Assembly: GCA_964631015.1 (NCBI GenBank)
Contig: CAZVXH010000002.1
Coordinates: 36 to 64,035 of the forward strand
Direction of reading: 5' to 3'
Length of the DNA stretch: 64,000 bases
Source: an uncultured Candidatus Cloacimonadota bacterium
GTDB lineage: Bacteria > Cloacimonadota > Cloacimonadia > Cloacimonadales > Cloacimonadaceae
Shown: positions 18,601 to 60,959 of the stretch, piece after piece
Position numbering within the stretch: the stretch's first letter is position 1
Layout: each line of letters begins with the position of its first letter
Program-made: the position numbers and the translations under genes
The notes under the pieces: generated by a model
Told to the model about the DNA's origin: nothing
What the model saw: the letters and a program-made list of their open reading frames with translations, nothing else
Database searches by the model: none

Positions 18601-18694
18601 GGTCTATCTGCCGGGTTTGGGCAGACAGGGTCAGGGCGAAGGCCAGGGCGACAGCTATCAGCGGTATCACCTTGCCTCTGAACTCTTTGTGCAT
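12695..18694 (-). CDS. giant secreted C25 (gingipain-like) cysteine peptidase (1999 aa) with MAM-like, FN3, unknown-module and Ig-like domains
   Basis: Signal peptide 'MHKEFRGKVIPLIAVALAFALTLSAQ'. C25 propeptide-like N-terminus. Catalytic dyad context 'NYTAHGSETSW' (His codon 17303-17305) and 'VGNCCVTNSF'. AAGGGAG RBS. Confidence 0.9.
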   Translation of the reverse strand: MHKEFRGKVIPLIAVALAFALTLSAQTRQIDLSTSANEARLNNNSDLGFDVQYSVGALKILEVQTREGAFDELSIDGWTHTNAVGEPKLPLLRKLIAVPLGADVRLTLNSQSARELDAVASKLRHRVIPAQESVSKSADPATLPFVVKEDIYSRAEFNSRDWVQVSDLGIMRGVRVFALDFYPVRYNPVDGSLRVMENLDVRVDFFNPDLVGTADMLARTGSHEFDALYAKSLFNWKADDRTSIVRYPTKYLILCPPNYTDELQPFVDWKIQQGYAVTVTTVGTGGTIANTTTAIKNYMSSVWSAATAQNPAPTYLLIIGDTSTSGDNVIAMPAQVTSPSSSHITDNYYVRLSGTDFVPEMYYGRFSVASAAELTNIVNKTLTWEKTQMTDLSYLGNVVMIAGVDSGFGPTHANGAINYATQNYFNTAHGINSNTYLYPASGSSDATIIANANAGRGFINYTAHGSETSWADPTFSVSDVNAMTNAGKYGVMVGNCCVTNSFGYSSPCFGESIIRKANAGGVAYIGATNNSYWDEDYWWGVGAKGTANGTAPAYDATKLGAYDAIYHDHSEAFTDWAQTMGETIWMGNLAVNQGGSSMINYYWEIYSIMGDPSLMPYYGVPTANPASYPAQIMIGNTSYAITGAAPYTRIGLSMNGVIYATGITDASGNLTLTITPFTTAGTAKLVLTAQDRITKIVDIPVVAAEGPYMSVDSVLYDDANNDAPDYNESGYLDVTFENVGVDPATNVSAVLTCSTTGVTITDANHTINSLAAGASLLADNAYAISIANNVANGTVANFTITMTMSGESPWTYNFSLTLNAPALAFGTITVSDPAPGNNNGRLDPGETVTITMPLHNTGAAASPAGSATLTCATPGITINTGTASFTAIAAAGSANLSFSLTAASSMTVGTVAALVFNATAGAYTANKTENVAVGLIIEDFSTGSFSSFPWIQSSTPWTIVNDNYHSASYAAKSGTITHSQSSTMETTRILSTSGDLSFWYKVSSESGYDYLKFYVDGTQQGQWSGEVDWTQASYTLAAGTRVLKWEYMKDGSVDSGSNCAWVDDIIFPASTTPSNFYPPQNLSAAPGNGYVNLTWQTPLTGTPTSYRIYRDGSLLTTVTGLTYTDNAVVNETTYSYYLIAVYSGGVSDPTDTVQATPSAIVPTEVIIGTGTNSNGTTTACPVNQYWRSLHGQSVYTAAELNAAGVVGPINITQIGFNITGLPAQAMPNFVVRMGHTTAANVASWISTGLSQVWSGASYQPTATGWNMYTLSTPFLWNGTDNLLVDTGFGLIASYNQSGTTEYSTVTNGYRYNRSDSADQTAVFTGGSTSTNRPNLKLALLPNEEGPMIVVSPGTLAYGDVAVGGTDVKTFTIANGGDQTLTGTITTPAGYSVAEAARSATATSGKVSRNSLGFSVNAGASKTYNLTFAPTAAQAYNGNVAIANNSNNNTSVNLAVTGTGYIPATIDIDNDALYANLQVETEGTDSFTITNTGSQPLTYSISMEELLAQANRQPQAASDADKSIAGSTLTLDATNYLPGTTVDWTFTVTNASTDSEWIKDVIISFPAGVTVNSATTFVGGDGGDLTPDVTSGSGVTVTWHGEGSSGWGVIYGNGDSASATVNVTIGIGLGGDLTLPWILNGDIYGSEPHTLDGSIVLAEDLPPIAWLSVQPLSGSIAAGQSATITAYFSAVGMAVGSYEAMLTIHSNDPVNPSLDVSATMDVWDNGNHAPQIILPASFAFDRNGSLTADFSSYVSDEDLDPLTLGYSGNTNILVAINGLSVTFTAAQNWTGTETVTFSVYDGYTYAYDSVQVTVNEVAGPGWEAVLYPNSATLHGIVTIYGVAGELNDVVGAFVGTECRGVADVVMNGANAYVTLVVNLASDGEEISFKIYDYSANLAYDALETYSLGYNDVIGSTETPVPVSVSEITELDTPVITAITKVSGGFRIAWNAVDYADIYEVWRATDPYGTYEQVGFNVNALLFDDLTELPMAFYYIKAVKN

Positions 18695-43006: not shown

Positions 43007-43138
43007 CACAAAACCGTGTCACAAATCTTTCTTACATAGTGTGGATCAAGTTTTATCCACTCGCTGAACTCGCGAAACCAGACCCGGGAATCAGTGAAAA
43101 CGCACAAAATACAAACCCATAAGGAGATAGAAAGGACC

Positions 43139-46100
43139 ATGAACAGAAGGAAGATCCTGCTGACCGTATTGCTTGTCATCTTTGGCACGCTCGGTTTGGC
43201 GGCCGCGCCGCGCTTTGGCGAACGGCCTTTCATCGACATTTATCAGGTTCCTGACAGCGCCATCGAACAGGGGCACATCAGGATCAAGCTCAGCGAGGAC
43301 CATTCCGCGCTGGCCCAAAGTTTTCAATATCAAAACGGCGCTCTGGCCAGCTTCGGCATCGAAGAACTGGACGCCCTCAACCTTCAGTACGGGATCAAGA
43401 AGATCAGCCCGGTTTTCGGCGACGTGAGCAAGAACCTCAAGTGGGGCTGGCGTCACGTGGAATGGGGCCTGCATCTTTGGTTTGAACTGGATTACGACAG
43501 CGCCGCGGACATCCGCGAGATCGTGCTGGCCTACCGCGGCCTGAAAACCAATGTGCAGTGGGCCGAGCCCGAATACAAGAAAACCCTGCTTTCCCTCAAC
43601 CAGGATGAGGTTTCCGCCCTCGCTGAAACCATCAGCCGCTGGACCCCGAACGACCCGCGTTACGGCGAACAGTGGCACTACAACAACACCGGCCAGACCA
43701 GCGGAACCATCGATGCCGACATCGACCTGCCCGAGGCCTGGGACATCGAGAAAGGCCATCCGGACGTGATCGTGGACGTGCAGGACGGAGGCTTCCAAAC
43801 CGACCATCCCGACCTCAACGGCAACCTCTGGAACAATCCCGGCGAAATTGCCGGCAACGGGATCGACGATGACGCCAATGGTTATATCGACGATATTTAT
43901 GGCTATAACTTTGTAAACAGCAACGCGACCATAGTGGGTCATTACCACGGCACCCACGTATCCGGCACGATCGCTGCCGAATCCAACAACTCCACCGGAG
44001 TGTCCGGCGTCGCCGGTGGTAATGGAACCACGCGCGGAGTCAGCCTGATGTCCACCCAGGTGTTCACAGATGCCTCGAGCGGTGGCTTTGAAACCGCTCC
44101 CGTCTACGGCGCGGACAACGGCGCCGCCATCTCCCAGAACAGCTGGGGCTATACCAGTGTGGGAGCCTATGATCAGGTGGTGCTGGACGCCATCGACTAT
44201 TTTAACGCCAACGGCGGCGGTGCCGTGATGAACGGCGGCATCACCATTTACGCGGCCGGAAACAGCGAGTCATCCGGCCAGTGGTATCCCGGCTGCTACA
44301 GCGGTGCCTTCGCCGTGGCCGCCACCACCCACAACGACACCAAAGCCTGGTACTCGAACTATGATACCTGGGTGGATGTCTCAGCCCCCGGCGGAGAAAC
44401 ATCTGTGACAGCGCAGGGCGTGCTGAGCACCTATACTGGAAGCGGTTATGACTTCCTGCAAGGTACTTCGATGGCCTGCCCCCACACCTCCGGCGTGGCC
44501 GCTCTGGTGCTTTCTTATGCCCACCGCAACGGCCGCACCCTCTCCAATACTGAATTGGCCAATATAATCCGGAATACCACCGACAACCACTACGCTGCGA
44601 ACCCAGGCTACATTGGGCAATTGGGTACCGGGCGCATCAATGCCTACCAGGCTTTGCTGGCCACCGATCCCACCCTGCCCTCGGTTACCATCACCGCGCC
44701 CATCAATGGTTCTGTGTACGATCTCAACAGCAGCATCACCATCACCGCCACCGCCACGGATACCGACGGCACGGTCACCGGCGTGGCCTTCTATATCGAC
44801 GATGTGCTGCAGATTACCGACACCTCCAGCCCCTACAGCTGGGTCTGGAATACCACCGGTTACAGCGGCGGATCGCACGTTATCAAAGCCATCGCCACGG
44901 ATAACGACAGCCACACCGCCACCAGCACGGTCACCGTCACCCTGCTGGCTCCTCCGGATGAAGGTTTTGAGACCGGCAACTTCTCCGCATTTGCCTGGAA
45001 CAACAGCAGCGCGATACCGTGGACGGTGCAGAGCGTGGATAAGTTCTCCGGCACCTATGCCGCCAAGAGCGGCGCCATAAGCTCCAGCGGCAGCACCACC
45101 CTCAGCCTGCCTGTGGTGGTTAGCAGCGCCGGAAACATCAGCTTCTGGTACAAGGTGTCCTCCGAATCCAGCTACGACTGGCTGCGCTTCTATGTGGACG
45201 ACGTACAGCAGGGCCAGTGGTCCGGCTCAGCGGGCTGGGCCGAAGCTTCCTATGCCGTTGGCTCAGGACCGCACACCTTGTCCTGGACCTATTCCAAAGA
45301 CGGCTCTGTGAATACCGGCAGCGACTGCGCCTGGCTGGACCACATCATCTTCCCCCCGATGGGTGCCTACTATGCCCCGCCGCGAAACCTGACCGCCACT
45401 TCCGGCAATGCCGTGGTAAATCTTGCCTGGCAGGCTCCCGCCTCCGGAACTCCCACCGGCTACCGGATCTACCGCGACGGCAACCTGCTCACCACAGTTA
45501 CCGGACTCACTTACACCGACAGCGCCGTGGTGAATGAAACCACCTATAGCTACTACGTAACCGCGGTCTACAGCGGAGGGGTTTCCGATCCCTCCAACAC
45601 CGTGACTGCCTTCCCCACCACCAATCCCCTTGCCACCATCATCATCGGCGAAGGCACGGGATCGCAGACCTACCCCATCGACCGCTATTACAACTATTCC
45701 GGCCATGAAGCCATCTACCTGGCCGATCAGATCGGCACCGCCTGCAACATCAAGTCCCTGGGCTTTTACAAGTCCAGCGGCGTTAATGTGGCCCCTATCG
45801 AGGCAGTGACCATCTACATGAAACACACCACTGAATCATCCCTGGCCACCGGCAATTACAGCACCACCGGCTACACCCAGGTCTTCAGCGGAAACTTCCC
45901 GAACACCGCGACCTCCGGCTGGATGGAGGTGGAGCTGAACAGCCTCTTCGCTTACAACGGAACTTCCAACCTGGCCATCCTGACCATCAAAGGCAACCAG
46001 GCCTATATATCCGATTATCCCTATTGGACCTACAGCACCACTACTGGCACCCAAGCCCGTCAGGCCCACAGCGACTCCGCCCAGCCCCTATCCCTGACAG

Positions 46101-48181
46101 CCTCCACCAATCTGCCCAACCTGAAGCTGCAGGCCTACTTACCCGCCGGTGTCCTCTATCCCGCGCGGAACCTCACTGCGGCAGGCGGTAATGGCTTTGT
46201 CCTGCTGAACTGGATCGCTCCTTTCAGCGGAACCCCCACCGGCTACAAGATCTACCGGAACGGCAGCCTGCTGACCACCGTTACGGGGCTCACATACACC
46301 GACAACGCCGTGGTGAACGGCAGCACCTACTCCTACTATGTGGTGGCAACCTATTCTGGTGTAGACGCTGATCCCACCGCCACCGTTCAGGCCACGCCAC
46401 AATTGGTGACTTCCGCCATCATCGGCGATGGGGCCGGCAGCGGCGGAACCTCGGAAGCCTGTCCGATCAACGTGTACTATCAGAGCCTGCACGGCCAGGC
46501 CGTCTATACCAAAGCCGAGTTAAACGCCAAAGGCGTGTTCGGGCCTATCGACATCTCTCAGATCGGCTTCAATGTGACCGGCTTGCCCAGTCTCGCCATG
46601 CCCAACTACCTCATCCGCATGGGCCACACCAGCGCCGTAGATGTTGCCACTTGGATCTCCACTGGTCTCAGCCCTGTCTGGAACGCTGCCTCCTATCAAC
46701 CCACCGCGACCGGCTGGAACATGCTAACTCTGGCGACCCCCTTCACCTGGAACGGCAACGACAATATCGTGCTGGACACCGGCTTTGGCCTGATCGGTTC
46801 CTGGAACTCGAGCGGAACAACGCAGTACACATCCGTGACCAACGGCTACCGCTACGTGCGCAGCGATACAGTCGACCAGACAGATATCTTTACTGGCGGC
46901 TCAGCCACAGTCTACCGTCCAAACCTGCAACTAACTCTGGCGCCTGAAGTGGTGCAAGCCCCCGAGATCGTGGTTTCGCCTCTGACCCTGGATTTCGGCG
47001 CCGTCCTGGTAGGCAGCACCGGAGTGCTGCAGTTCACCGTGCAAAACACCGGCACAGCCGCGCTGACAGGCTCGATAAGCACCCCGCTTGGCTATACCGT
47101 GTCCCAGGTGATCGCCAAAGGCGTCAGCTCCGCCCCTGAAAGGTCCGCCGTTCCCAGCGGCAAGAGCGCGCCCGCTCTGGAAACCCAGCGCAATACCCTC
47201 ACCCTCAGTGTGCCGGCTGGTCAGAGCGTTGTCTACAACCTCAGCTTCGCTCCCACCTTGGCGCAAGCCTATCCCGGCAACGTGACCATCAGCAGCAATG
47301 ATGCCGATGAACCCACGGTCAACATCGCCATCACCGGCAGCGGCTACACCGACCCCAGCATCAGCGTGAACCCCACCAGCCTCATCTCCACCCTGCCCGT
47401 GAACGGCGGAGAAAACCTCAGCTTCCACATTGGCAATTCCGGCAGCCTGAACCTCGAGTTCACCGTCACGGAAACACCCTCCGCGGACTGGCTAAGCTTC
47501 TTCCCGCCCCTCGGAACGGTGTCGCAAGGTGCTTCACAGGAAGTGGTGGCCAGCTTCAACGCCACCGGCCTCGCCCCCGGCCAATATCAGACCACCCTCA
47601 ACGTCGCCTCCAATGATCCGGAAACCCCCCTGCTGGCAGTCACTGTGACCCTCAACGTCACCAACAACGCCCCCACCCTCAGTCTGCCTCAGGAAGGGTT
47701 CCAGTTCGACATGAATTCCACCCTGCAGGTGGATTTTAGCCAATATATCGCGGATCTGGATGGTCACACAGTCACCCTTACCGTTGGTGAGAGCGACTTC
47801 ATCCAGGCTTCCATCGTCGGACACTTGGTCACTTTCTCCGCGCCGGCCGATTGGTTCGGCAGCGAGATCCTGAACTTCGTGGTGGATGACGGCTACGCGG
47901 TTGGCTTCGGTTCCGTGACGGTCACAGTCAACCTCAATTACCTGGCTGTGCCAAACGTCACCGTCGTCAAATCCGCCGGCGGAGTCACCGTCTCCTGGGA
48001 CAATGTGGCCAACGCCAACCGCTACCATATCTACCGCGCCACCGATCCCTACGGCAATTACGGCACTCTGCCCTTCGCCACGGTGCTCGCGCCAAATTCC
48101 AGCTGGGAGGACACCGAAGTCCTGCCCATGGCCTTCTACAAGGTTGTGGCGGCTTTTGAGGAACTTCCCGCCAAACAATAA
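43139..48181 (+). CDS. giant secreted S8 (subtilisin-like) serine peptidase, 1680 aa, with Ig-like, MAM-like, 2x FN3, 2x unknown module and an FN3-like tail
   Basis: Signal peptide 'MNRRKILLTVLLVIFGTLGLAAA'. Catalytic triad contexts 'VDVQDGGFQTDHPDL', 'HGTHVSGTIAA' and 'GTSMACPHTSGVAAL'. Confidence 0.9.
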   Translation: MNRRKILLTVLLVIFGTLGLAAAPRFGERPFIDIYQVPDSAIEQGHIRIKLSEDHSALAQSFQYQNGALASFGIEELDALNLQYGIKKISPVFGDVSKNLKWGWRHVEWGLHLWFELDYDSAADIREIVLAYRGLKTNVQWAEPEYKKTLLSLNQDEVSALAETISRWTPNDPRYGEQWHYNNTGQTSGTIDADIDLPEAWDIEKGHPDVIVDVQDGGFQTDHPDLNGNLWNNPGEIAGNGIDDDANGYIDDIYGYNFVNSNATIVGHYHGTHVSGTIAAESNNSTGVSGVAGGNGTTRGVSLMSTQVFTDASSGGFETAPVYGADNGAAISQNSWGYTSVGAYDQVVLDAIDYFNANGGGAVMNGGITIYAAGNSESSGQWYPGCYSGAFAVAATTHNDTKAWYSNYDTWVDVSAPGGETSVTAQGVLSTYTGSGYDFLQGTSMACPHTSGVAALVLSYAHRNGRTLSNTELANIIRNTTDNHYAANPGYIGQLGTGRINAYQALLATDPTLPSVTITAPINGSVYDLNSSITITATATDTDGTVTGVAFYIDDVLQITDTSSPYSWVWNTTGYSGGSHVIKAIATDNDSHTATSTVTVTLLAPPDEGFETGNFSAFAWNNSSAIPWTVQSVDKFSGTYAAKSGAISSSGSTTLSLPVVVSSAGNISFWYKVSSESSYDWLRFYVDDVQQGQWSGSAGWAEASYAVGSGPHTLSWTYSKDGSVNTGSDCAWLDHIIFPPMGAYYAPPRNLTATSGNAVVNLAWQAPASGTPTGYRIYRDGNLLTTVTGLTYTDSAVVNETTYSYYVTAVYSGGVSDPSNTVTAFPTTNPLATIIIGEGTGSQTYPIDRYYNYSGHEAIYLADQIGTACNIKSLGFYKSSGVNVAPIEAVTIYMKHTTESSLATGNYSTTGYTQVFSGNFPNTATSGWMEVELNSLFAYNGTSNLAILTIKGNQAYISDYPYWTYSTTTGTQARQAHSDSAQPLSLTASTNLPNLKLQAYLPAGVLYPARNLTAAGGNGFVLLNWIAPFSGTPTGYKIYRNGSLLTTVTGLTYTDNAVVNGSTYSYYVVATYSGVDADPTATVQATPQLVTSAIIGDGAGSGGTSEACPINVYYQSLHGQAVYTKAELNAKGVFGPIDISQIGFNVTGLPSLAMPNYLIRMGHTSAVDVATWISTGLSPVWNAASYQPTATGWNMLTLATPFTWNGNDNIVLDTGFGLIGSWNSSGTTQYTSVTNGYRYVRSDTVDQTDIFTGGSATVYRPNLQLTLAPEVVQAPEIVVSPLTLDFGAVLVGSTGVLQFTVQNTGTAALTGSISTPLGYTVSQVIAKGVSSAPERSAVPSGKSAPALETQRNTLTLSVPAGQSVVYNLSFAPTLAQAYPGNVTISSNDADEPTVNIAITGSGYTDPSISVNPTSLISTLPVNGGENLSFHIGNSGSLNLEFTVTETPSADWLSFFPPLGTVSQGASQEVVASFNATGLAPGQYQTTLNVASNDPETPLLAVTVTLNVTNNAPTLSLPQEGFQFDMNSTLQVDFSQYIADLDGHTVTLTVGESDFIQASIVGHLVTFSAPADWFGSEILNFVVDDGYAVGFGSVTVTVNLNYLAVPNVTVVKSAGGVTVSWDNVANANRYHIYRATDPYGNYGTLPFATVLAPNSSWEDTEVLPMAFYKVVAAFEELPAKQ

Positions 48182-48198
48182 CCAGATCTGAAACAATG

Positions 48199-48237
48199 GC
48201 CCGGCCTGTTCCCTGGTGAATTGGCCGGGTTTTTTTT
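48199..48237 (+). terminator. intrinsic terminator after the S8 gene
   Basis: CCCGGCC...GGCCGGG stem followed by T8. Confidence 0.8.
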
Positions 48238-48254
48238 ACCCCCGGGAAAGGTTG

Positions 48255-48315
48255 TGCAAAGGAAATTGTAACTTTTGCACCGGAAATTGCAACATTAACA
48301 AGCCAATCATACATT
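48255..48315 (+). promoter_or_regulatory. two 18-nt direct repeats (TGCAaaGGAAATTGtAAC and TGCAccGGAAATTGcAAC, 21-nt period) overlapping a TTGCAA-17-TACATT promoter
   Basis: Repeats at 48255-48272 and 48276-48293. -35 at 48287-48292 and -10 at 48310-48315. The ATG is at 48336. Confidence 0.4.
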
Positions 48316-48335
48316 TTCACTTCAAAGGATCGATC

Positions 48336-51300
48336 ATGAGGAAAACCACCTTCGCCTGGCCCCTACTGCTGGCCATGCTACTGCTGATCCCCCTCTCTCT
48401 GGCAGCGCAAAACCTGCCCGGCGGCTCAGCTTTCACCGTTACCCGCGACAGCGGCGACGGCATCCAGATCAGTTTTCAACTTCCCGCCTGGGAGCTCGAG
48501 TCTGTCGAGCGCGACGGCGCCACCCTTTCCCGGGTTCGCGTGGACGGAATCCCCAATCTCTTCATCGGCGAAGAGGAGACCCTGCCGGTGTTCAGCGCCA
48601 TGGTGGCCATTCCCTGGCGCGGCGGCGTGAGCCTGCGCGACTCCGGCGACCCGGCTGAACTTCGCTCCGGGGTCCAGCTGGATTTTGCCGCCGCCCTGGC
48701 CGCGGAACGCCAAAGCGGCCGCTTGCCGGAAAAGCTCTATCCAGCCGCGCCCGCCCTCATCTCTGAACCCATGCTGCTGCGCGATTTCCGCGTGGTGAGC
48801 CTCAACGTGCATCCTTTCCAGTGGGACAGCGCCACGGGCGAACTGCTCGTGCGGGAAAGCCTTACCCTCAACCTCGATTTCGACAACGGCCCCTCCGTGA
48901 ACGAGACGACGCCAGCCCTCAGCCTTTCCCCAGCCTTTGCCAAGATCTATCCCGGCCTCATCCTCAACTACCAGCAGCTGCTTGGCCGCGATGGACTCGA
49001 ATACTCCAACCCCCGCCTGCTGGTGATCTACGGCAACTTCAGCGACGCCATCTATCTGGGCAAGGTGAACGAATACGTTACCTGGAAACGCCAGAAAGGC
49101 TTCCTCGTGAATGCCGTTAGCACCGCCACCGCGGGAACCACCTCAGGCGCGATCAAAACCTACATCCAAGGCCTGTATGACAACCCGGACACCCGGCCGG
49201 ATTACATCAGCATCATCGGCGACGCGGGCACTGGTAACATGCAGGTTCCGTCCAACGACACCTACCACGATTACAATTACACCTGGCTGGCGGGTGGCGA
49301 CAACCTGGGTGACGCCGCCATCGGCAGGATCTCGGTGGAAACCACGGAGCACCTACAGAACTACATGGCCAAGATCAACAGCTTGGAGATAAACATCAAC
49401 CCGGATGCTGCCGCCTGGCTGGACCGCATGCTGCTGGTGGGGGATACGGCTTCCTCCGGCATCTCGACCATCTACACGAACGAATACATCCACGACCGCT
49501 CCCTGGAAGTAAACCCGGATTACAGCTATACAGAGCTTTACAATGGGGCACCCCCTTCCACCAGCATCAACGCGGCCATCAACCAGGGCGTGGCTTTCTA
49601 CAATTACCGCGGCTATATAAACATGAGCGGCTGGCCCAGCACCATGGGCAACATGGCCAATGGCAACCGCCTCTTCCACGCGGTCTTCATCACCTGCAGC
49701 ACCGGCAGCTTCGGCGGAGGGACCGCCACCACGGAATCGGTGGTCCGCCATGGCACGGAAGCCTCTCTGGGAGGCGCGGTGACCGCCATCGGCATGGCCA
49801 CTTCCAGCACCCACACTCCGATGAACAACTGCCTGGACGTGGGCATCTTCCACGGCATTTATCCCCTGGGCATGCGGAACATGAGCGAGGCCATGCTCTA
49901 CGGCAAGCTCTACCTTTACGCGGTTTATGGCGTTAGCAACACCGCCCAGGCCAACAACTTCTCCGGCTTTTGCAACCTGATCGGCGACCCCACCGCCCCC
50001 GTCTATGTGGGAATTCCTGAAACTTTCAGCCTCTCCGCTCCGGCAAGCGTTCCCACCGGTACCACCAACCTGGAAGTAGGGGTGAAGGACGCCGCGAACC
50101 AGCCCGTGGCCGGCGCCTCCGTGGTACTCACCAACAGCTCCGGACAGCAAATCGCCCTGGCCTTCAGCGATGCCACCGGCCTGGCCTACCTGGATTTTGC
50201 CGCCCTCACCGGCGCTGTCAGCCTCACCGTGAACAAAGACGACTTCAAGCCACAGGTGCAGACTATTACGCTAAACAGCTCCGGCGGCCTGGCCTTTGAA
50301 GAAACGGAGATCGACGACTACGATTCCGGCAACGGCGACAACATCGCCAACCCCGGCGAAAACCTGGACCTCTATTTCTGGCTGCGCAACACCGGCGCGG
50401 TCGCCACCGGCGCGTTCAGCGGCACCCTCAGTTGCAACGATCCCTATGTGGTCCCGGTGAGTAACCCGATCAACTTTGCCTCCATCAGCCCCAACGCCAC
50501 TGGCGTCAGCAGCGCCGTGGGCATGGAAATCAGACCCAACTGCCCGGATCAGCACCGTGTGGTGCTCACTTTCACCCACGCGGGCGGGCAGATCGCCGTC
50601 CCCATGCTTGTCTCCGGCGGCCGTTTGGAGATCGTGGCCCACAGCTTTGTGGGCTCACCCGGCAATCTGGTGAATCCCGGCGACAGCTGGCCCCTCACCT
50701 TTACCCTCGCCAACAGCGGCGGCGCTCCCCTCACCAATCTGACTGGAACTCTCAGCTCCCTGGATACTTTCTTTGCAGTAAGCGATGCCCAGGGCGCCTG
50801 GGGCAACCTTGCCAGCGGCGCCAGCGCGACCAACAGTGCAAACACTTTCACTATCAGCGCCAGGAACAGTTGCCTGGACGGCATGGTGATCCCCCTCCAG
50901 CTTGATCTCACCGCCACAGACTTCGCCCAGAGCATCCCGCTCACTTTCACCCTCGGCCAAACCTCGGTCACCGACCCCCTCGGCCAGGATGCCTACGGCT
51001 ATTTCATCTTCGACGCGGGCGACACCAGCTATGACCAGTGTCCCACCTACAATTGGATCGGCATCGCCCCCGCGGAAGGCGGCAGCGGCACCGCCCTCAG
51101 CCTTTCCGACCCCGGCAACAGCTCTGACGAAGGCGATCAGGTGGGTGCGGTGGCCATCCAGACAGTGAACCTGCCCTTCAGCTTCAAGTATTACGGCGTG
51201 GATTACAGCCAGGCCTCCATCTCCTCCAACGGTTTCATCGCCTTTGGAGCCACCAACGACGCCGACTGGCGCAACTGGCGTCTGCCCGACGCTGGCGGAC

Positions 51301-54300
51301 CCAGCCCCATGGTCGCCGTTTTCTGGGATGACCTCGACCTCGTTAGCGGCAGCAGCTACGTGTACACTTGGTACAACAGCGCCCTGCATTACTATGTGGT
51401 GGAGTGGTACAACCTGTATTCCGGCTACGATGGCACCACGCAGCAGACTTTCCAGGCCATCCTCTACGATCCTCTCTATTATCCCACTCACACGGGCGAT
51501 GGCCAGATCAAGCTCCAGTACAAGGTCTTCAACAACATCGACCTCGGCGACGGAGACAGCTATCCCCACGGCAACTACGCCACCATCGGCATTGAGGATC
51601 ACACTTCCACCGTAGGCTTGGAATACACGTTTGGCAATACCTGGCCCACCGCCGCCGCCCCGCTGGATAACGAAAGCGCTCTCTTCATCACCACCCGGCC
51701 GATCATACCGGATTACCCCTATCTGGTGCTGGAACAGATCTTTGTACACGACGCCAATGCCAATGGCCATCTGGAACCCGGAGAAAGCTCCCAACTAAAT
51801 ATCCGCCTGGGCAACCGCGGTTTGGTGGATGCCACGAACGTTTCGGCAGTGCTCAGCAGCGCCGATCCCTACGTTACTGTAACCACAGCCAACGCCACTT
51901 ACGGCACCGTTCCAGCTCAGGGAAGTGCCTACCCTTCCGGCAATTACGCTGTAAGCGTGGCCCCAACCTGCCCGGCTGACCACCAGCTCACCTTTACCCT
52001 GGCCATCACCAGCGCCACCGGCAGCTGGAACTACAACTTCCCGTTGACAGTGGTGGTGCCAGAACTCAGCTTCAGCAACCCGCAGGTGAGCGATCCCAGC
52101 GGCAACCAGAACGGCATCCTCGATCCCGGCGAGACCGCCGTCATCACCATCCATCTGAACAACATCGGCGTGATCCCCAGCCCGGCTGGAACCGCCACCC
52201 TCAGTTGCTCCACTCCCGGGATCAGCGTAACGGATGCCTCGGACAGCTTTACCAGCCTGGCAGCGGGTGCCTATGCCACCCTCAGCTTCGAGCTCAGTGC
52301 CTCCGCCGCCATGACCCAGGGCACTTTGGTGACCCTCGGGTTCAACGCCCTGGCCGGCTCCACCAGCGCCAGCCACAGCGAATACCTCGAGGTGGGCGCT
52401 CCGCTGGAGGTCGTGATCGGCGCGGGTACCTCCACCCAGAACTATCCCCTCGACCGCTATTACAACTACAGCGCCCACGAAGCCATCTATCTGGCCTCCG
52501 AGATCGCCACCGCCGGCACTCTGAAAGCCCTCGCTTTCCAAAAAGCCAGCGGTACGGATGTGGATCCCATCGCCGCCGTCTCCATCTATCTGAAGCACAC
52601 CACCGCCAGCAGCATCAGCGCCGGGGATTACAGCCTCACCGGCTATACCCTGGTCTACAGCGGCGCTTTCCCGAATACAGCCGCCTCCGGTTGGATGGAG
52701 GTGGATCTGAATCCCATGTTCTTCTACGACGGTGCTTCCAATCTTTCCGTGCTAACCGTGAAAGGCTTTCAACAGTACATCAGCGGTTATCCCCAATGGA
52801 CCTATTCCGCGCCCGGGGGCAACCGCGCCCGCCAGAACCGCAGCGATTCTGCCGCTCCCACCAACTTGATGGCCTCAACCTACCTGCCCAACCTGCGCCT
52901 GAAAGTGTTTCCGGATTACGATGTCTTGCTGCCGCCGCAAAATCTGACCGCTGTACCCGGAAACGGCTTTGTGAACCTCAGTTGGGAGGCTCCCGCCACC
53001 GGTTCCCCCATCAGTTATCAGATCTATCGCAATAACACTCTGCTGGTCACAGTTACCGGTCTGAACCACACCGACACCGCGGTTGTTAACGAGACCACCT
53101 ACAGCTACCATCTGATCGCCATCTATGACGGCGGCGCTTCTGGAGCCACCCCCACGGTGCAGGCAATGCCCACCGCGGTTGTTGTCACCGAAGCCATCAT
53201 CGGCTCCGGCACCGCCAGTAGCGGTACATCTGAAGCCTGCCCCATAAACGAATATTATGAAAGCCTGCACGGCCAGTCCGTCTATACGGCTGCCGAACTC
53301 AACTCCGCCGGAGTGGTGGGACCCATCGTGATCAGCAGTATCGGTTTCAATGTGACCGGTCTGCCCAGCCTCGCGATGCCCAACTACGTGGTCCGGATGG
53401 GGCACACCAGCGCCTCCAATGTGGACGCCTGGATCTCCACCGGCCTCACCCAGGTTTGGAGTTCCGCTTCCTATCAGCCCACTGCCACCGGCTGGAACAT
53501 GTTCACACTTACCACTCCCTTCACCTGGAACGGTAGTGACAACCTCCTGGTCGACACCGCCTTTGGCGATATCGGCGACTGGAACTCCAGCGGTACCACC
53601 CAGTTTACTGAAGTGACCAGCGGCTACCGCTATGTCCGCGAGGACAATAGCGACCAGACCAACATCTTCACCGGAGGCTCCACCTCGACCTACCGCCCCA
53701 ACCTGAAGCTGCTCCTTGTGCCGGACGAGGAACCTGAACTGCTTCCCCCCACCAACCTCAGCGCCAGCGCCAGCCACGGCTACGCGCGCCTGAACTGGGG
53801 AGCCCCGGCCAGCGGAACTCCGGACGGCTACAAGGTTTACCGCGACGGCAGCCTGCTCATCTCCGTGACCGGCCTCACCCACACCGATCTCAGCGTAACC
53901 GACGGAACCACCTATCAGTATGGGGTAAGCGCGGTTTATGCCGGAGGGGAATCCGTTCCCGCCGGCCCCGTGAGCGCCACGCCCAACACTCAGCCCCCCA
54001 CGAACCTCACCGCCCTGCCCGGCAACGCCGTGGTGAACCTCAGCTGGTCCGCCGCGTCAGGCCGCGGGCTTTTCTCTGAGCTCGCTTCTTTCGGCAGCAA
54101 GGACCGCGACATCAGCGGCTACCGGATCTACCGCAACGGGGTGGCCCTCACCACGGTCGCGGCAACCTCATATCAGGATGCCGGACTGAGCAACGGGACT
54201 GCCTACAGCTACCATGTGACCACCCTCTACAGCGCTCCCGCGGGCGAATCCGCGCCTTCGAACACCGTGATCGCCACTCCGAACAACCTCCAGACCGTCA

Positions 54301-55064
54301 TTATCGGCAGCGGCACCTTGGTTACCAACGGCAACCAGAACAGCCCCCTCAACATCTGCAACAACAGCGTGCACGGCCAGTCGGTCTACACCGCCGCGGA
54401 ACTCAACGCCGCCGGCATCTTCGGACCCATCGAGATCATCGGTTTGGGCTTCAACGTGGTCACACCCCCCAACCTGCCCCTGCCGAACTTCATCATCCGC
54501 CTCAAACACACCCCGGCCACCAACGCCGCTGCCTGGAGCGATGCCACCGGACTGCAAACCTGCTACACCAACGCCGCTCTGATGCCCGTGGCCGGAGGCT
54601 ACGATCTGCTGAACTTCCAAACCCCCTTCCTCTGGAATGGAACGGACAACCTCCTCGTGGATACCGCCTTCAGCCCCGTGACGGTGGCCAGCCAAAGCGG
54701 AACCCTCCAATACACCTCCGTCAGCAGCGGCTACCGCTTCGCCTGGAGCAACAGCGACGACCAAACCGCGGTCTTCAGCGGCGGAACAGCGGTTACCCGC
54801 CGCTATAACATCCAACTGGCCTGCCGGGAGGCGGAACTCGCCCTCGACCCGCCGTCTGTCGCCATTTCCTTCAGCGGCGCCAACCGCCTGCTTACCTGGA
54901 ATAGCGTGACCAACGCCACCTCCTATCAAATCTGGTGGTGCGCCGATCCTTACGGAACTTACGAAGCGCTGGCCACCCTCAACGATCCCCTGGCCACCAG
55001 CTACACCGACACCCGCCCGGGCCTCGACCGCGCCTTCTACCGCGTGACCGCCCTGCGACCCTGA
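48336..55064 (+). CDS. giant secreted C25-like protein, 2242 aa, lacking the canonical catalytic His, with 3x unknown module, several FN3 domains and an FN3-like tail
   Basis: Signal peptide 'MRKTTFAWPLLLAMLLLIPLSLAAQ'. C25 propeptide-like N-terminus. 'YISIIGDAG'. The Cys context 'FITCSTGSF' is retained, but the aligned His-Gly reads 'NYRGYINMSGW' (Tyr codon 49614-49616). Confidence 0.85.
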   Translation: MRKTTFAWPLLLAMLLLIPLSLAAQNLPGGSAFTVTRDSGDGIQISFQLPAWELESVERDGATLSRVRVDGIPNLFIGEEETLPVFSAMVAIPWRGGVSLRDSGDPAELRSGVQLDFAAALAAERQSGRLPEKLYPAAPALISEPMLLRDFRVVSLNVHPFQWDSATGELLVRESLTLNLDFDNGPSVNETTPALSLSPAFAKIYPGLILNYQQLLGRDGLEYSNPRLLVIYGNFSDAIYLGKVNEYVTWKRQKGFLVNAVSTATAGTTSGAIKTYIQGLYDNPDTRPDYISIIGDAGTGNMQVPSNDTYHDYNYTWLAGGDNLGDAAIGRISVETTEHLQNYMAKINSLEININPDAAAWLDRMLLVGDTASSGISTIYTNEYIHDRSLEVNPDYSYTELYNGAPPSTSINAAINQGVAFYNYRGYINMSGWPSTMGNMANGNRLFHAVFITCSTGSFGGGTATTESVVRHGTEASLGGAVTAIGMATSSTHTPMNNCLDVGIFHGIYPLGMRNMSEAMLYGKLYLYAVYGVSNTAQANNFSGFCNLIGDPTAPVYVGIPETFSLSAPASVPTGTTNLEVGVKDAANQPVAGASVVLTNSSGQQIALAFSDATGLAYLDFAALTGAVSLTVNKDDFKPQVQTITLNSSGGLAFEETEIDDYDSGNGDNIANPGENLDLYFWLRNTGAVATGAFSGTLSCNDPYVVPVSNPINFASISPNATGVSSAVGMEIRPNCPDQHRVVLTFTHAGGQIAVPMLVSGGRLEIVAHSFVGSPGNLVNPGDSWPLTFTLANSGGAPLTNLTGTLSSLDTFFAVSDAQGAWGNLASGASATNSANTFTISARNSCLDGMVIPLQLDLTATDFAQSIPLTFTLGQTSVTDPLGQDAYGYFIFDAGDTSYDQCPTYNWIGIAPAEGGSGTALSLSDPGNSSDEGDQVGAVAIQTVNLPFSFKYYGVDYSQASISSNGFIAFGATNDADWRNWRLPDAGGPSPMVAVFWDDLDLVSGSSYVYTWYNSALHYYVVEWYNLYSGYDGTTQQTFQAILYDPLYYPTHTGDGQIKLQYKVFNNIDLGDGDSYPHGNYATIGIEDHTSTVGLEYTFGNTWPTAAAPLDNESALFITTRPIIPDYPYLVLEQIFVHDANANGHLEPGESSQLNIRLGNRGLVDATNVSAVLSSADPYVTVTTANATYGTVPAQGSAYPSGNYAVSVAPTCPADHQLTFTLAITSATGSWNYNFPLTVVVPELSFSNPQVSDPSGNQNGILDPGETAVITIHLNNIGVIPSPAGTATLSCSTPGISVTDASDSFTSLAAGAYATLSFELSASAAMTQGTLVTLGFNALAGSTSASHSEYLEVGAPLEVVIGAGTSTQNYPLDRYYNYSAHEAIYLASEIATAGTLKALAFQKASGTDVDPIAAVSIYLKHTTASSISAGDYSLTGYTLVYSGAFPNTAASGWMEVDLNPMFFYDGASNLSVLTVKGFQQYISGYPQWTYSAPGGNRARQNRSDSAAPTNLMASTYLPNLRLKVFPDYDVLLPPQNLTAVPGNGFVNLSWEAPATGSPISYQIYRNNTLLVTVTGLNHTDTAVVNETTYSYHLIAIYDGGASGATPTVQAMPTAVVVTEAIIGSGTASSGTSEACPINEYYESLHGQSVYTAAELNSAGVVGPIVISSIGFNVTGLPSLAMPNYVVRMGHTSASNVDAWISTGLTQVWSSASYQPTATGWNMFTLTTPFTWNGSDNLLVDTAFGDIGDWNSSGTTQFTEVTSGYRYVREDNSDQTNIFTGGSTSTYRPNLKLLLVPDEEPELLPPTNLSASASHGYARLNWGAPASGTPDGYKVYRDGSLLISVTGLTHTDLSVTDGTTYQYGVSAVYAGGESVPAGPVSATPNTQPPTNLTALPGNAVVNLSWSAASGRGLFSELASFGSKDRDISGYRIYRNGVALTTVAATSYQDAGLSNGTAYSYHVTTLYSAPAGESAPSNTVIATPNNLQTVIIGSGTLVTNGNQNSPLNICNNSVHGQSVYTAAELNAAGIFGPIEIIGLGFNVVTPPNLPLPNFIIRLKHTPATNAAAWSDATGLQTCYTNAALMPVAGGYDLLNFQTPFLWNGTDNLLVDTAFSPVTVASQSGTLQYTSVSSGYRFAWSNSDDQTAVFSGGTAVTRRYNIQLACREAELALDPPSVAISFSGANRLLTWNSVTNATSYQIWWCADPYGTYEALATLNDPLATSYTDTRPGLDRAFYRVTALRP

Positions 55065-55469: not shown

Positions 55470-56975
55470 ATGAAAAGCTTGCCGCTGCTGTTTGTGCTGT
55501 TGGTGATTTCCACGGGTGTTTGGGCAGAGGTTTATCAGATCGGAACGGGGACCACACCCTCCAATCAGGCCCCGGTCAATGGCAATGCCAATTTTAGCTG
55601 GAGCAAAATGATCTGTCCCCGGACAGATATCAGCAACGCCGGACTGGGCACCACGTCGGAGATCATTGGGATCGGCTTTTCCCTGAACAATCTGATGTCG
55701 GACTACTCTTTCACTAACCAGCACATCTACATGCGCCATACTGACCTTTCATCTTACAGCAACCTCAGTCTGGACCTCACCGGCGCCATTGAGGTTTACG
55801 CTGGCATCGTCACATTTCAGGATACCGGATGGCAACAGGTCTCATTCAGCCAGGTTTTTGCGTGGGATGGAGTAAGGAACATCGAGCTTATCTGGACAAA
55901 CCAGCATGGAACAAGCAGAACAGTATCCCCTCAGTTCCTCCATTCTGGGACCTCGGCCAGTACCTTGGTTTACAAGAGCGGAAGTGCTTTTCCCACTGGC
56001 CCGGGAACGGCTGCAACACGCTTGCCGAATCTGCAACTGATCACGCCAATGCCACCCTTGCCAGCGCTGGCTGTGTATCCGCAGGACGGGAGTTATGCTT
56101 TGCCGGGGTCGCGGTTGATCTGGAAAAGCGGAGGTGGCTGTCCGACCTCGTATGACGTGTATTTTGGCACGGTCGATCCACCGCCTTTGGTGAGCGACGG
56201 CCAAACAAGCGCTTGGTATCAGCCGGCGCTGGCAGCGGGCGGCAGCTATTTTTGGAAGATCGTTCCCTCCAATCTCGGCGGCAGTCCCGCGAGCGTGCCG
56301 CTGTGGAGTTTCCGGGTGCCAGAGGAAGGCCAGTTGGCCGAGAGTTTTGAGACCTGGCTGCCGGCAGATTGGGCGAATCCGGGGGGGTGGAACAGCTACT
56401 CCAGCTATCCCTACCACGGCAGCTACTGCGCCTATGCTTCGGCGGATACGTACGGGAAATTGCTGTCAACGCCCAGGCTTTACGTGAGTGCCGGTTCCAG
56501 CCTGGAGTTTCAGGCCCGGAGTTCAAGCACAGCCGGCAACGCCCGGATGCGGATCAAATATTCTGGCGATGGCAGCAACTGGTCAGTGTTGGAGCCTGCG
56601 TTGAGCGTTACTTCAACCGTTTCCTGGCAGCGCTTTCAGGTAGATCTGAGTTCACTGGCGGGGCAGAGCGTGTACTTGGGTATCGAGGCCTTCAATGCAG
56701 ATGCCTCCGGTACTGTGGGTATCTACCTGGACCAAGTTGTAGGTCCGCGTCCGGCCGGTTTGTATCCGCCGCCGGAGCTCAGCATCAGTCGCCAGGGCAA
56801 TAATTTCAGTCTGGTCTGGACACCGCGGGTCGGGGCCACAGGCTACCGGGTGTATGCCGCGCAGGGTCTGGATTCCTTTACTGAAACGCCGCTGGCTGTT
56901 CTGGGCGCCGGAGTGACGAGTTACTCCGTGCCGGCCGGAGCGGGGAAATTCTTTCGGGTAACGGCGCTGTATTAG
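55470..56975 (+). CDS. secreted non-catalytic paralogue (501 aa): unknown module + Ig/FN3-like + MAM/jelly-roll-like + FN3-like tail
   Basis: GAGGAG RBS. Signal peptide 'MKSLPLLFVLLVISTGVWA'. The module ends 'TRLPNLQLI'. The tail reads 'WTPRVGATGYRVYAAQG...KFFRVTALY'. Confidence 0.8.
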   Translation: MKSLPLLFVLLVISTGVWAEVYQIGTGTTPSNQAPVNGNANFSWSKMICPRTDISNAGLGTTSEIIGIGFSLNNLMSDYSFTNQHIYMRHTDLSSYSNLSLDLTGAIEVYAGIVTFQDTGWQQVSFSQVFAWDGVRNIELIWTNQHGTSRTVSPQFLHSGTSASTLVYKSGSAFPTGPGTAATRLPNLQLITPMPPLPALAVYPQDGSYALPGSRLIWKSGGGCPTSYDVYFGTVDPPPLVSDGQTSAWYQPALAAGGSYFWKIVPSNLGGSPASVPLWSFRVPEEGQLAESFETWLPADWANPGGWNSYSSYPYHGSYCAYASADTYGKLLSTPRLYVSAGSSLEFQARSSSTAGNARMRIKYSGDGSNWSVLEPALSVTSTVSWQRFQVDLSSLAGQSVYLGIEAFNADASGTVGIYLDQVVGPRPAGLYPPPELSISRQGNNFSLVWTPRVGATGYRVYAAQGLDSFTETPLAVLGAGVTSYSVPAGAGKFFRVTALY

Positions 56976-60344: not shown

Positions 60345-60725
60345 TCAGCCCTCTATGAGTTGGGAATATTCGATGGCGGTGAGGAGGTTGGAAAGTTCTT
60401 CCTCGTTGTTGAGGCGCACGCGGTAGAGCCAGCCTTCTTCAAAGGGCGAGCGGTTGATGATTTCGGGGCTGTCCTCGACCTCCTGGTTCTTGTCGTCCAC
60501 CAGGCCGCTGACAGGGCTGATGAGGTCTTCGGCGGATTTCACGGCCTCGATGGTGCCGCAGGGTTCGCCCGCGGAAACTTTCGCTCCGGCTTCGGGCAGC
60601 TCCAGAAACACTATCTCACCCAGTTCGTGCTGGGCAAAATCGGTGATGCCGATGGTGGCAACGCCGTCCTTGACGCTCACCCATTCGTGGCTTTCGGTGT
60701 AGTATAAATCGTCGGGTACAAGCAT
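60345..60725 (-). CDS. gcvH: glycine cleavage system protein H
   Basis: 126 aa. 'YYTESHEWV' and the lipoyl-Lys context 'GTIEAVKSAEDLISPVSG'. AGGAGG RBS. The annotated 475-aa ORF upstream of this Met is an artefact. Confidence 0.95.
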   Translation of the reverse strand: MLVPDDLYYTESHEWVSVKDGVATIGITDFAQHELGEIVFLELPEAGAKVSAGEPCGTIEAVKSAEDLISPVSGLVDDKNQEVEDSPEIINRSPFEEGWLYRVRLNNEEELSNLLTAIEYSQLIEG

Positions 60726-60959
60726 GGTATCCTCCTGTGATGGTGCTTTTTTAGCTATATCAGGCCAAATCCCCACAAGGGGTTTTTGTGTCAAGGACAA
60801 GTTTGGTGGCGGTGGCCGCAGTTCCCCTGGGGAAGAGGGTTGGGGGCGGGTCCACTTTTTTCGGGGCGGAACTTCCCCGCTTCCGCGGATTTTCCGCTTG
60901 ACCAAAAGGGGCGGCGGCGTTCGGATGGGGAAAATGACCATTCCGAAAAGGAAACGCAG

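What the first reader, a model, noticed from the sequence alone, without database searches (positions are those of the whole stretch)
45638..46940. Unannotated ~170-aa module present seven times in four secreted proteins
A module recurs with the conserved skeleton '(I/V)IG.GT...(C)P.N.YY.S.HGQ.VYTA.ELN..G..GPI.I..IGFN(V/I)TG.P...MPN(Y/F).(V/I)RMGHT....V..W.......W....Y.PTATGWNM..L..PF.W.G.DN(L/I)(L/V)(V/L)DT.FG........GTT.Y......GYRY.R.D..DQT..FTGGS...RPNLKL'. It occurs at about 14680-15205 (minus strand, C25 protein). It also occurs at 45638-46130 and 46414-46940 (S8 protein), and at 52410-52905, 53193-53715 and 54297-54825 (C25-like protein). The last copy is at 55530-56045 (501-aa protein). 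Two subtypes exist: a 'CP.N.YY.SLHGQ' type, and a more divergent 'YP(I/L)DRYYNYS.HEAIYLA' type. In the three giant proteins the module always follows an FN3 domain and ends in an (R/L)PNL(K/Q/R)L motif. I cannot assign it to any domain family I know. It is the only element common to serine-peptidase, cysteine-peptidase and non-catalytic members, so it is a good candidate for a lineage-specific substrate- or cell-surface-binding domain.
Basis: seen in the sequence. Interest (0 to 1): 0.75.

Follow-up and report, generated by a model that had tools for sequence, protein, structure and literature searches.

The report
Unannotated beta-sandwich binding module, widespread
The repeated ~170-residue module is a real, confidently folding beta-sandwich domain with no Pfam, NCBIfam or solved-structure match, but it is not lineage-specific: it belongs to a very large family of bacterial surface proteins and phage tail-fibre genes and most likely acts as a ligand-binding module.

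Summary
All seven copies sit at the stated coordinates in four signal-peptide proteins: an S8 peptidase, two C25 peptidases and a 501-aa non-catalytic protein. A profile built only from foreign sequences finds each copy at 70-173 bits, and no other copy exists in the window. Pfam, NCBIfam, PHROGs and PDB sequences give no significant hit. Only sub-threshold, colinear matches to Pfam DUF4082 appear. AlphaFold2 models of both subtypes are very confident (pLDDT 95 and 97) and all-beta. The nearest solved folds are only loosely similar (TM 0.53 or less): lectin-like, carbohydrate-binding and phage fibre-tip domains.

The module is not lineage-specific. An exhaustive search finds 14,301 protein clusters, with up to 14 copies per protein. 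Members occur in Cloacimonadota, Bacteroidota and WOR-3, often right after the signal peptide. Some are small proteins made only of signal peptide, module and T9SS sorting domain. In viral contigs a ~200-aa homologue always directly follows a collagen-like tail-fibre gene.

Best reading: an autonomous, non-catalytic recognition module, probably for a glycan or other surface polymer. This is inferred, not shown. It is not the only shared element, because all four proteins also share a ~72-aa C-terminal domain. Verdict: a new, unnamed family of a known kind, of moderate interest.

The parts
45635..46132 (+). Module copy 1 of the S8 peptidase, subtype B ('YP.DRYYNYS.HEAIYLA'), protein residues 848-1013
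   Evidence: An HMM built only from foreign sequences scores it at 173 bits. AlphaFold2 model pLDDT 97.1.
46412..46942 (+). Module copy 2 of the S8 peptidase, subtype A ('CP.N.YY.SLHGQ'), residues 1107-1283
   Evidence: Foreign-only HMM 111.5 bits. AlphaFold2 model pLDDT 95.1, pTM 0.91.
52407..52907 (+). Module copy 1 of the C25-like protein, subtype B. It is preceded by a CARDB/Ig-like domain, not FN3.
   Evidence: 165 bits. 63% identical to S8 copy 1. CARDB hit at residues 1303-1363.
53190..53717 (+). Module copy 2 of the C25-like protein, subtype A
   Evidence: 125.8 bits. 75% identical to S8 copy 2.
54294..54827 (+). Module copy 3 of the C25-like protein, a divergent subtype A
   Evidence: 92.7 bits. 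46% identical to S8 copy 2.
55530..56045 (+). Module of the 501-aa non-catalytic protein, the most divergent copy. It starts one residue after the signal-peptide-like segment (...GVWA|E-VYQIGTGT).
   Evidence: 70.5 bits and i-E 8e-18 with the foreign-only HMM.
14678..15205 (-). Module of the C25 (gingipain-family) protein, subtype A, residues 1164-1339
   Evidence: 126.3 bits.
43139..48181 (+). Host gene 1. Domain order: signal peptide, S8 N-terminal domain, S8 peptidase, Big_7, MAM-like, FN3, module B, FN3, module A, Ig-like/choice-of-anchor-D region, C-terminal FN3-like domain. The likely ATG start is at 43139; the open frame runs from 43094.
48336..55064 (+). Host gene 2. It holds a C25 propeptide and a C25 peptidase, followed by Ig/CARDB-like domains. 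The order then runs module B, FN3, module A, FN3, FN3, module A' and the C-terminal domain. The likely ATG start is at 48336.
55470..56975 (+). Host gene 3 (501 aa from the likely ATG). Domain order: signal peptide, module, linker, choice-of-anchor-J domain, C-terminal domain.
12695..18694 (-). Host gene 4. Domain order: C25 propeptide, C25 peptidase, C25 Ig-like domain, MAM-like, FN3, module A, choice-of-anchor-D/Ig region, C-terminal domain.
45377..45616 (+). FN3 spacer before S8 module B. Equivalent FN3 spacers lie at 46157-46399, 52929-53171, 53742-53984, 53991-54281 and 15224-15466(-).
   Evidence: Pfam fn3 hits; coordinates
47942..48178 (+). Shared ~72-aa C-terminal FN3-like domain of the S8 protein. 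The same domain lies at 54843-55061(+), 56760-56972(+) and 12698-12910(-).
   Evidence: No Pfam hit. No profile similarity to T9SS CTDs.

Best explanation
Each copy is an autonomous ~165-177-residue all-beta sandwich domain of the lectin / carbohydrate-binding-module kind. It belongs to a very large, so far unnamed domain family.

In this Cloacimonadota genome segment it is built into four exported proteins that carry Sec signal peptides. It is separated from neighbouring domains mostly by FN3 spacers. The proposed role is a non-catalytic recognition module. It would bind a polymeric ligand, most likely a glycan or another cell-surface or particulate polymer. That binding would hold the S8 and C25 peptidases, or the cell itself, on their target. 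Tandem copies of two subtypes (B then A) would add avidity or a second specificity.

Shown here: the domain is real, it folds confidently, it is unannotated, it is widespread, and it occurs alone on T9SS-sorted proteins and next to phage tail-fibre genes.

Inferred: that it binds a ligand, and what that ligand is.
For: 1. The domain is real and independent. There are seven copies, each found by a foreign-only HMM at 70-173 bits. AlphaFold2 gives pLDDT 95.1 and 97.1 for the two subtypes, with the same strand order.
2. The fold class fits binding. The nearest solved structures are the Cwp84 lectin-like domain, the CBM domains of the acetyl-xylan esterases PbeAcXE, CspAcXE and FjoAcXE, a polyvinyl-alcohol esterase solved in a polymer-binding study, CBM6/CBM35, ConA-type lectins, and mycobacteriophage central-fibre and tail-tip proteins. 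The BFVD matches are mostly minor-tail or collagen-fibre proteins, plus one true homologue with TM 0.79 and 25% identity.
3. The architecture fits a distal, exposed module. Among the 150 best family members there are 2-14 copies per protein, and 79 of the 150 start within 60 residues of the N-terminus. Co-occurring domains are T9SS sorting domains, FN3 and Ig-like domains, with peptidases only occasionally.
4. The module works on its own. Small proteins made of signal peptide, module and T9SS CTD occur as tandem paralogue pairs in Chryseobacterium and WOR-3.
5. There is a phage link. In viral contigs L085-L088 and L090, a ~200-aa homologue (66-74 bits) lies immediately downstream of a collagen-like tail-fibre gene. 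In L087 that upstream gene is a 1916-aa protein matching PHROG tail-fibre families at E=0.
6. The family-wide conserved residues are mostly core aromatic and aliphatic residues plus a few polar ones: P18, Q29, E36, T73, N118, D152 and N171. The His of the 'HT' motif is not conserved family-wide, which argues against a shared catalytic centre.
Against: - No ligand, binding site or experiment supports binding. The structural similarity to lectins and CBMs is weak (TM 0.38-0.53, E no better than 8e-4 in the PDB library) and could reflect generic beta-sandwich geometry.
- The genomic neighbourhoods of the small stand-alone genes are uninformative housekeeping genes.
- The phage protein next to the fibre could be a fibre-assembly factor rather than the receptor-binding tip.
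Confidence: 0.6

Rival explanations
1. The module is a passive structural spacer or stalk. It only extends the peptidase or adhesin away from the cell surface and has no ligand of its own.
For: It is repeated up to 14 times, alternating with FN3 in a beads-on-a-string pattern. It sits among many Ig/FN3 spacer domains.
Against: - Small proteins consist of nothing but signal peptide, module and T9SS sorting domain.
- The module is preferentially the first domain after the signal peptide.
- Polar residues are conserved across phyla.
- Homologues are linked to phage tail-fibre genes.
These features are not expected of a mere spacer.
Confidence: 0.15
2. The module is a protein-protein assembly or self-anchoring domain. 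It would oligomerise, as fibre-tip domains trimerise, or attach the protein to the producer's own envelope or S-layer, rather than recognise an external substrate.
For: - The structural neighbours include trimeric phage fibre and tail-tip proteins.
- The phage homologue is a separate small protein next to the fibre gene, as fibre-assembly or adhesin partners are.
- The small genes come as tandem paralogue pairs.
Against: In Bacteroidota and WOR-3 members the T9SS CTD already provides surface anchoring. In the window proteins a separate, strictly C-terminal domain is the likelier sorting or anchoring element. No oligomer prediction was run.
Confidence: 0.15
3. The module is a small catalytic domain, for example one acting on glycans or peptides.
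For: Q29, E36, T73, N118 and D152 are conserved in a non-redundant set.
Against: - No enzyme fold appears among the structural matches beyond the accessory domains of esterases.
- The His of the 'HT' motif is not conserved family-wide.
- Up to 14 tandem copies occur in one protein.
- The module occurs in proteins that already carry S8 or C25 catalytic domains.
Confidence: 0.05
4. The module is simply a divergent member of an already described Pfam family, DUF4082 (PF13313), and so is not a new family.
For: DUF4082 is the recurrent best sub-threshold Pfam hit, in a consistent register. Module positions ~54-139 align with DUF4082 positions 29-113. It matches 4 of 16 modules (best E 0.0033). In whole-protein scans it matches P0016 at 15.7 bits and P0146 at 22.3 bits with E 1.4e-4.
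Against: Every match is below the gathering score of 28.4 bits and covers only about half of the module. None of the seven window copies reaches E<0.1, and only one matches at all. DUF4082 is itself of unknown function, so even true remote homology would not explain the module. No profile-profile test was possible, because no DUF4082 sequences were at hand.
Confidence: 0.3

Closest known systems
Pfam DUF4082 (PF13313)
   Same: It is the only curated family that gives repeated, colinear matches to the central strands of the module, though all are sub-threshold. It has a similar size (143 profile positions). It is also an uncharacterised domain of bacterial secreted multi-domain proteins (that last point is from my own knowledge of the Pfam entry).
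   Different: No module reaches the gathering score: the best is 22.3 bits against 28.4. The matches cover about half of the module. The N-terminal 'IG.GT...P' and C-terminal 'RPN(I/L).L' signatures lie outside the match.
Gingipain haemagglutinin/adhesin modules (Pfam Cleaved_Adhesin, PF07675) of Kgp, RgpA and HagA
   Same: It plays the same architectural role. It is a repeated, non-catalytic beta-sandwich module appended to C25 peptidases and also found in non-catalytic paralogues. The gingipain part of this comparison rests on established knowledge of those proteins.
   Different: There is no sequence relationship: no PF07675 hit at E<=10 on any of 16 modules. In one homologue Cleaved_Adhesin occurs as a separate domain beside the module. 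The terminal RPNL(K/Q/R)L motif is predicted to be the last beta-strands of the fold, not a linker, so nothing points to a processing site.
Lectin-like and carbohydrate-binding beta-sandwich modules: the Cwp84 lectin-like domain 4ci7, acetyl-xylan-esterase CBM domains 7toh/7toj/7tok, CBM6/CBM35, ConA-type lectins
   Same: They share an all-beta sandwich architecture of similar size and are accessory domains of secreted hydrolases. These are the best PDB matches for both models.
   Different: The superposition is only loose (TM 0.38-0.53, rmsd 5-11 A, 6-13% identity). No ligand-binding residues could be compared.
Distal domains of phage collagen-like tail fibres and minor tail proteins
   Same: They are structural neighbours in BFVD and PDB. 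True sequence homologues of the module are encoded immediately after collagen-like tail-fibre genes in viral contigs.
   Different: In the phage contigs the module is a separate ~200-aa protein rather than a domain of a giant protein. No PHROG family or INPHARED genome contains it.
Choice-of-anchor J / MAM-like domains (NF038128, PF00629)
   Same: This is another beta-sandwich accessory domain found in the same proteins: S8, C25 and the 501-aa protein.
   Different: It is a distinct family. NCBIfam gives no hit on the module, and the profile-profile comparison gives only 6% probability.

Membership tests
Pfam Cleaved_Adhesin (PF07675) | Match to the family profile at or above the gathering score | tested here: not met
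   No hit even at E<=10 on 16 modules, and none on the four whole proteins. It occurs as a separate domain in one homologue.
Pfam DUF4082 (PF13313) | Match to the family profile at or above 28.4 bits | tested here: not met
   Best scores are 22.3, 15.7, 13.4 and 12.0 bits.
Pfam DUF4082 (PF13313) | Remote homology (same superfamily) shown by profile-profile or structure comparison | tested here: inconclusive
   Sub-threshold hits recur in a consistent register. No DUF4082 alignment or structure was available for hhalign or Foldseek.
Choice-of-anchor J / MAM-like domain | Match to NF038128 or profile similarity to the copies in the same proteins | tested here: not met
   NCBIfam hits only residues 326-458 of the 501-aa protein, not the module. 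hhalign of A6 against A9 gives probability 6%.
Lectin / CBM-like beta-sandwich fold class | Two-sheet all-beta sandwich of about 150-200 residues that superposes on known members | tested here: met
   AlphaFold2 pLDDT 95-97 with 11-12 strands. The top Foldseek matches are lectin-like, CBM and fibre-tip domains, but only at TM 0.38-0.53.
Carbohydrate-binding module (functional definition) | Demonstrated binding of a carbohydrate ligand by the isolated module | not testable with these tools
   Needs binding assays.
T9SS cargo protein (context of the family) | C-terminal sorting domain matching PF18962, PF13585 or TIGR04183 | tested here: not met
   This result is for the four window proteins. 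They show no CTD hit, and hhalign of their C-terminal domain against T9SS CTDs gives probability 0.3%. The feature is met in the Bacteroidota and WOR-3 homologues.

The most novel reading that the evidence does not exclude
The module defines a new, very large family of receptor- or glycan-recognition domains. The family is shared between T9SS-type surface proteins of the FCB superphylum and the collagen-like tail fibres of phages. Its conserved polar residues (Q29, E36, T73, N118, D152, N171) would form one ligand site. In Cloacimonadota, two specialised subtypes would target secreted S8 and C25 peptidases to the envelopes or debris of other microbes. If so, it would be a new CBM- or adhesin-type family with a defined ligand, exchanged between phages and hosts.
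Probability: 0.25. Interest if true: 0.65.

Novelty: new member of a known kind. Interest (0 to 1): 0.45.

Why it matters
More than 14,000 protein clusters carry a confidently folding domain that no curated library names. These include giant surface proteins of gut, rumen and digester bacteria (Prevotella, Bacteroidales, Cloacimonadota). At present such proteins are labelled only after their FN3, Ig or 'choice-of-anchor' parts.

Defining the family would improve annotation of a large share of T9SS-type cargo. It would also give a concrete handle on how uncultured Cloacimonadota hold their extracellular peptidases on substrates. Experiments can start from a small, stand-alone target: the ~280-aa proteins made of signal peptide, module and CTD, or the ~200-aa phage protein. 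The phage tail-fibre linkage suggests a shared recognition module between phages and bacterial adhesins.

Tried and rejected
- Pfam, NCBIfam and PHROGs scans of the whole proteins, the excised modules and 49 further homologues found nothing over the module except sub-threshold DUF4082.
- A PDB sequence search with the profile at E<=10 gave zero hits.
- tblastn of the module and of its phage homologue against INPHARED phage genomes gave no match.
Only the subtype-A alignment could be used, so the genome scan says nothing about the taxonomic range of the whole family.
- The word-indexed homologue search returned only short proteins, all named 'hypothetical' or after other domains.
- The idea that RPNL(K/R)L is a gingipain-type processing site was rejected. 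The motif forms the last beta-strands of the predicted fold, and N171 is conserved family-wide while the K/R position is not.
- The idea that the module is a diverged copy of the MAM/choice-of-anchor-J domain in the same proteins was rejected (hhalign probability 6%).
- The idea that the shared C-terminal domain is a canonical T9SS CTD was rejected at profile level.
- Gene neighbourhoods of the small stand-alone genes gave no functional clue.
- Literature searches on DUF4082, Cloacimonadota with T9SS, gingipain, FN3 or C-terminal domain found no description of this module.
Full report
**1. Observation**

The window holds four large open reading frames that carry the module:
- 43094-48181(+), likely ATG start at 43139
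- 48216-55064(+), likely ATG at 48336
- 12695-18694(-)

Pfam assigns the first to Peptidase_S8 and the second and fourth to Peptidase_C25. It assigns nothing to the third, which NCBIfam marks only with a choice-of-anchor-J domain. Each starts with a basic, then hydrophobic, signal-peptide-like segment. This was seen in the sequence; no predictor was run.

The subtype-A copies are 46-75% identical to one another. The two subtype-B copies are 63% identical to each other. A and B are about 25% identical. The copy in the 501-aa protein is 27-28% identical to either subtype.

A profile scan of the six-frame translation finds exactly these seven copies. A profile built only from nine sequences of other organisms finds all seven at 70.5-173 bits. 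The observation therefore stands.

Two side statements do not hold. First, the first copy in the C25-like protein follows a CARDB/Ig-like domain rather than FN3. Second, the module is not the only shared element (see section 6).

**2. Is it annotated anywhere?**

No Pfam or NCBIfam family covers the module in the four proteins. None covers the 16 excised modules even at E<=10, or 49 further homologues. PHROGs gives nothing. A profile search of all PDB chain sequences gives no hit at E<=10.

Public records name member proteins only after their other domains: 'choice-of-anchor D', 'choice-of-anchor J', 'fibronectin type III', 'gingipain R', or 'hypothetical'. Full-text searches found no description of the module.

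The single recurring lead is Pfam DUF4082. It is always below its 28.4-bit cut-off (best 22.3 bits) but always in the same register over the central strands. A distant relationship is possible and untested. DUF4082 is itself uncharacterised.

**3. Fold**

AlphaFold2 on a 16-sequence alignment gives very confident models for subtype A (pLDDT 95.1, pTM 0.91) and subtype B (pLDDT 97.1, pTM 0.92). Both have 11-12 beta-strands and one short helix, in the same order. The 'IG.GT' motif lies at the first strand, and 'RPN(L/I).L' forms the last strands.

Foldseek against the PDB finds only loose neighbours (TM 0.53 or less, best E 8e-4). These are the lectin-like domain of the Cwp84 cysteine protease, the CBM domains of acetyl-xylan esterases, polyvinyl-alcohol esterase structures, PHR domains, CBM6/CBM35, ConA-type lectins, and mycobacteriophage central-fibre and tail-tip proteins.

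Against predicted viral structures there is one true homologue, from an uncultured Caudovirales phage (TM 0.79, 25% identity, E 2.8e-9). The rest are mostly minor-tail or collagen-fibre proteins at TM about 0.5.

The module is therefore a beta-sandwich of the lectin/CBM/fibre-tip kind, with no close solved relative.

**4. Distribution**

An exhaustive HMMER search of 1.84 billion representative proteins finds 14,301 proteins at E<=1e-3, 10,369 at E<=1e-10 and 2,218 at E<=1e-30.

The 150 best carry 2-14 copies each, 638 in all, in proteins of up to 6,732 residues. In 79 of the 150 the first copy begins within 60 residues of the N-terminus, directly after the signal peptide.

Named members come from Cloacimonadota, WOR-3, Bacteroidales, Prevotella, Flavobacteriales and Chryseobacterium. 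The subtype-A signature was found at 261 genomic places. Of the 79 loci kept, 78 are from Cloacimonadota genomes or bins titled only 'uncultured bacterium', usually with several paralogues per genome. This also identifies the window as Cloacimonadota.

So the family is not lineage-specific. Only the subtype looks lineage-restricted.

Co-occurring domains in 39 mid-sized members are T9SS sorting domains (Por_Secre_tail in 10, CHU_C in 4), FN3 and various Ig-like domains. S8 (2 members), C25 (1), Cleaved_Adhesin (1, as a separate domain) and MAM (1) appear only occasionally. Most carriers are thus non-catalytic surface proteins.

**5. Clues to function**

(a) Small proteins consist only of signal peptide, module and T9SS CTD. 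They occur as tandem paralogue pairs in Chryseobacterium terrae and a WOR-3 genome. Their neighbours are housekeeping genes and give no hint. The module therefore functions on its own at the cell surface.

(b) T9SS CTDs anchor the C-terminus of a protein (established knowledge). An N-terminal module is then the distal end of the protein.

(d) A non-redundant set of 125 copies, all under 40% identical, shows these conservation levels:
- G5 81%
- G7 77%
- P18 94%
- Q29 70%
- E36 80%
- I48 85%
- T73 79%
- V89 92%
- W102 75%
- P110 82%
- F111 84%
- G115 82%
- N118 89%
- D152 57%
- N171 74%

The His of 'MGHT/MKHT' is not conserved family-wide, which argues against a common catalytic centre.

Taken together, the best-supported mechanism is a non-catalytic recognition module. 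It would tether peptidases, or the cell, to a polymeric ligand, probably a glycan. That it binds anything is inferred, and the ligand is unknown. Passive spacer, assembly or self-anchoring domain, and enzyme are the rivals, in decreasing order of plausibility.

**6. Comparison with known systems**

Functionally, the arrangement parallels the haemagglutinin/adhesin modules of gingipains. Those are repeated beta-sandwich modules on C25 peptidases and on non-catalytic paralogues. There is, however, no sequence relationship to Cleaved_Adhesin.

The conserved terminal motif is part of the predicted fold, not a linker. The module is also not a diverged copy of the MAM/choice-of-anchor-J domain in the same proteins.

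The four window proteins lack a recognisable T9SS CTD. Instead they all end in a ~72-aa FN3-like domain (consensus W..V.NA..Y.IYR...PYG.Y....T....Y.D...LP.AFYKV.A), often followed by a short 'PAK' or Lys-rich tail. An HMM of the four copies finds 62 instances in the 79 Cloacimonadota loci, and 59 of them end within 12 residues of the stop codon.

**7. Verdict**

The finding is real, and the 'unannotated domain' claim is correct as far as Pfam, NCBIfam, PHROGs and the PDB go. It is an undescribed family within a well-known kind: beta-sandwich accessory or binding modules of secreted multi-domain proteins. It is not a lineage-specific invention.

It is worth defining as a new family. It is remarkable for its size and for the phage tail-fibre link. 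A specialist would not find another uncharacterised beta-sandwich in such proteins surprising. Interest 0.45.

Noticed in passing
window 47942-48178(+), 54843-55061(+), 56760-56972(+), 12698-12910(-); also L001-L079: All four module proteins end in a shared ~72-aa FN3-like domain, often followed by a 'PAK' or Lys-rich tail. In 79 Cloacimonadota loci, 59 of 62 hits end within 12 residues of the stop codon. It has no Pfam hit and no profile similarity to T9SS CTDs. It is a candidate Cloacimonadota-specific C-terminal sorting or anchoring signal.
   Followed up: partly
L085 1177-1782, L087 5893-6501, L086/L088/L089, L090 1218-1838 (IMG/VR contigs): ~200-aa phage proteins are true homologues of the module. 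Wherever upstream sequence is present, they lie directly after a collagen-like (G-X-Y) tail-fibre gene. In L087 the two frames overlap by a few bases. This could mean translational coupling or a frameshift fusion; neither was examined.
   Followed up: partly
L080 8001-8906 and 9218-10123; L081 7023-7994 and 8001-8897: The small genes encoding signal peptide, module and T9SS CTD occur as adjacent paralogue pairs in Chryseobacterium terrae and a WOR-3 genome.
   Followed up: partly
window 44951-45358(+), 15488-15895(-), 56328-56747(+): A MAM/choice-of-anchor-J-like beta-sandwich domain is shared by the S8 protein, the C25 protein and the 501-aa protein. NCBIfam recognises it only in the 501-aa protein.
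   Followed up: partly
window 10858-12693(-): A secreted-type M14 zinc carboxypeptidase with a CarboxypepD_reg domain lies immediately downstream of the C25 gene on the same strand, separated by one base. This suggests a peptidase operon.
   Followed up: no
window 34626-38693(+): A 1355-aa protein has PPDK_N and PEP-utilizers domains only in its C-terminal third (residues 912-1341). The first ~900 residues have no Pfam hit at E<=1e-4.
   Followed up: no
window 60345-61772(-): In a 475-aa open frame only the last ~120 residues match glycine-cleavage protein H. The rest is unassigned. The cause may be an over-extended frame or a fusion.
   Followed up: no
window 1470-4004(+): An 844-aa protein has a transglutaminase-like core (residues 141-233) and no other Pfam domain at E<=1e-4.
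   Followed up: no
L084 379-6075 (IMGVR_UViG_3300028625_000190): A contig classed as viral encodes a 1899-aa host-like protein whose module is 53% identical to subtype A. It is probably a Cloacimonadota provirus region or a misclassified host contig.
   Followed up: no
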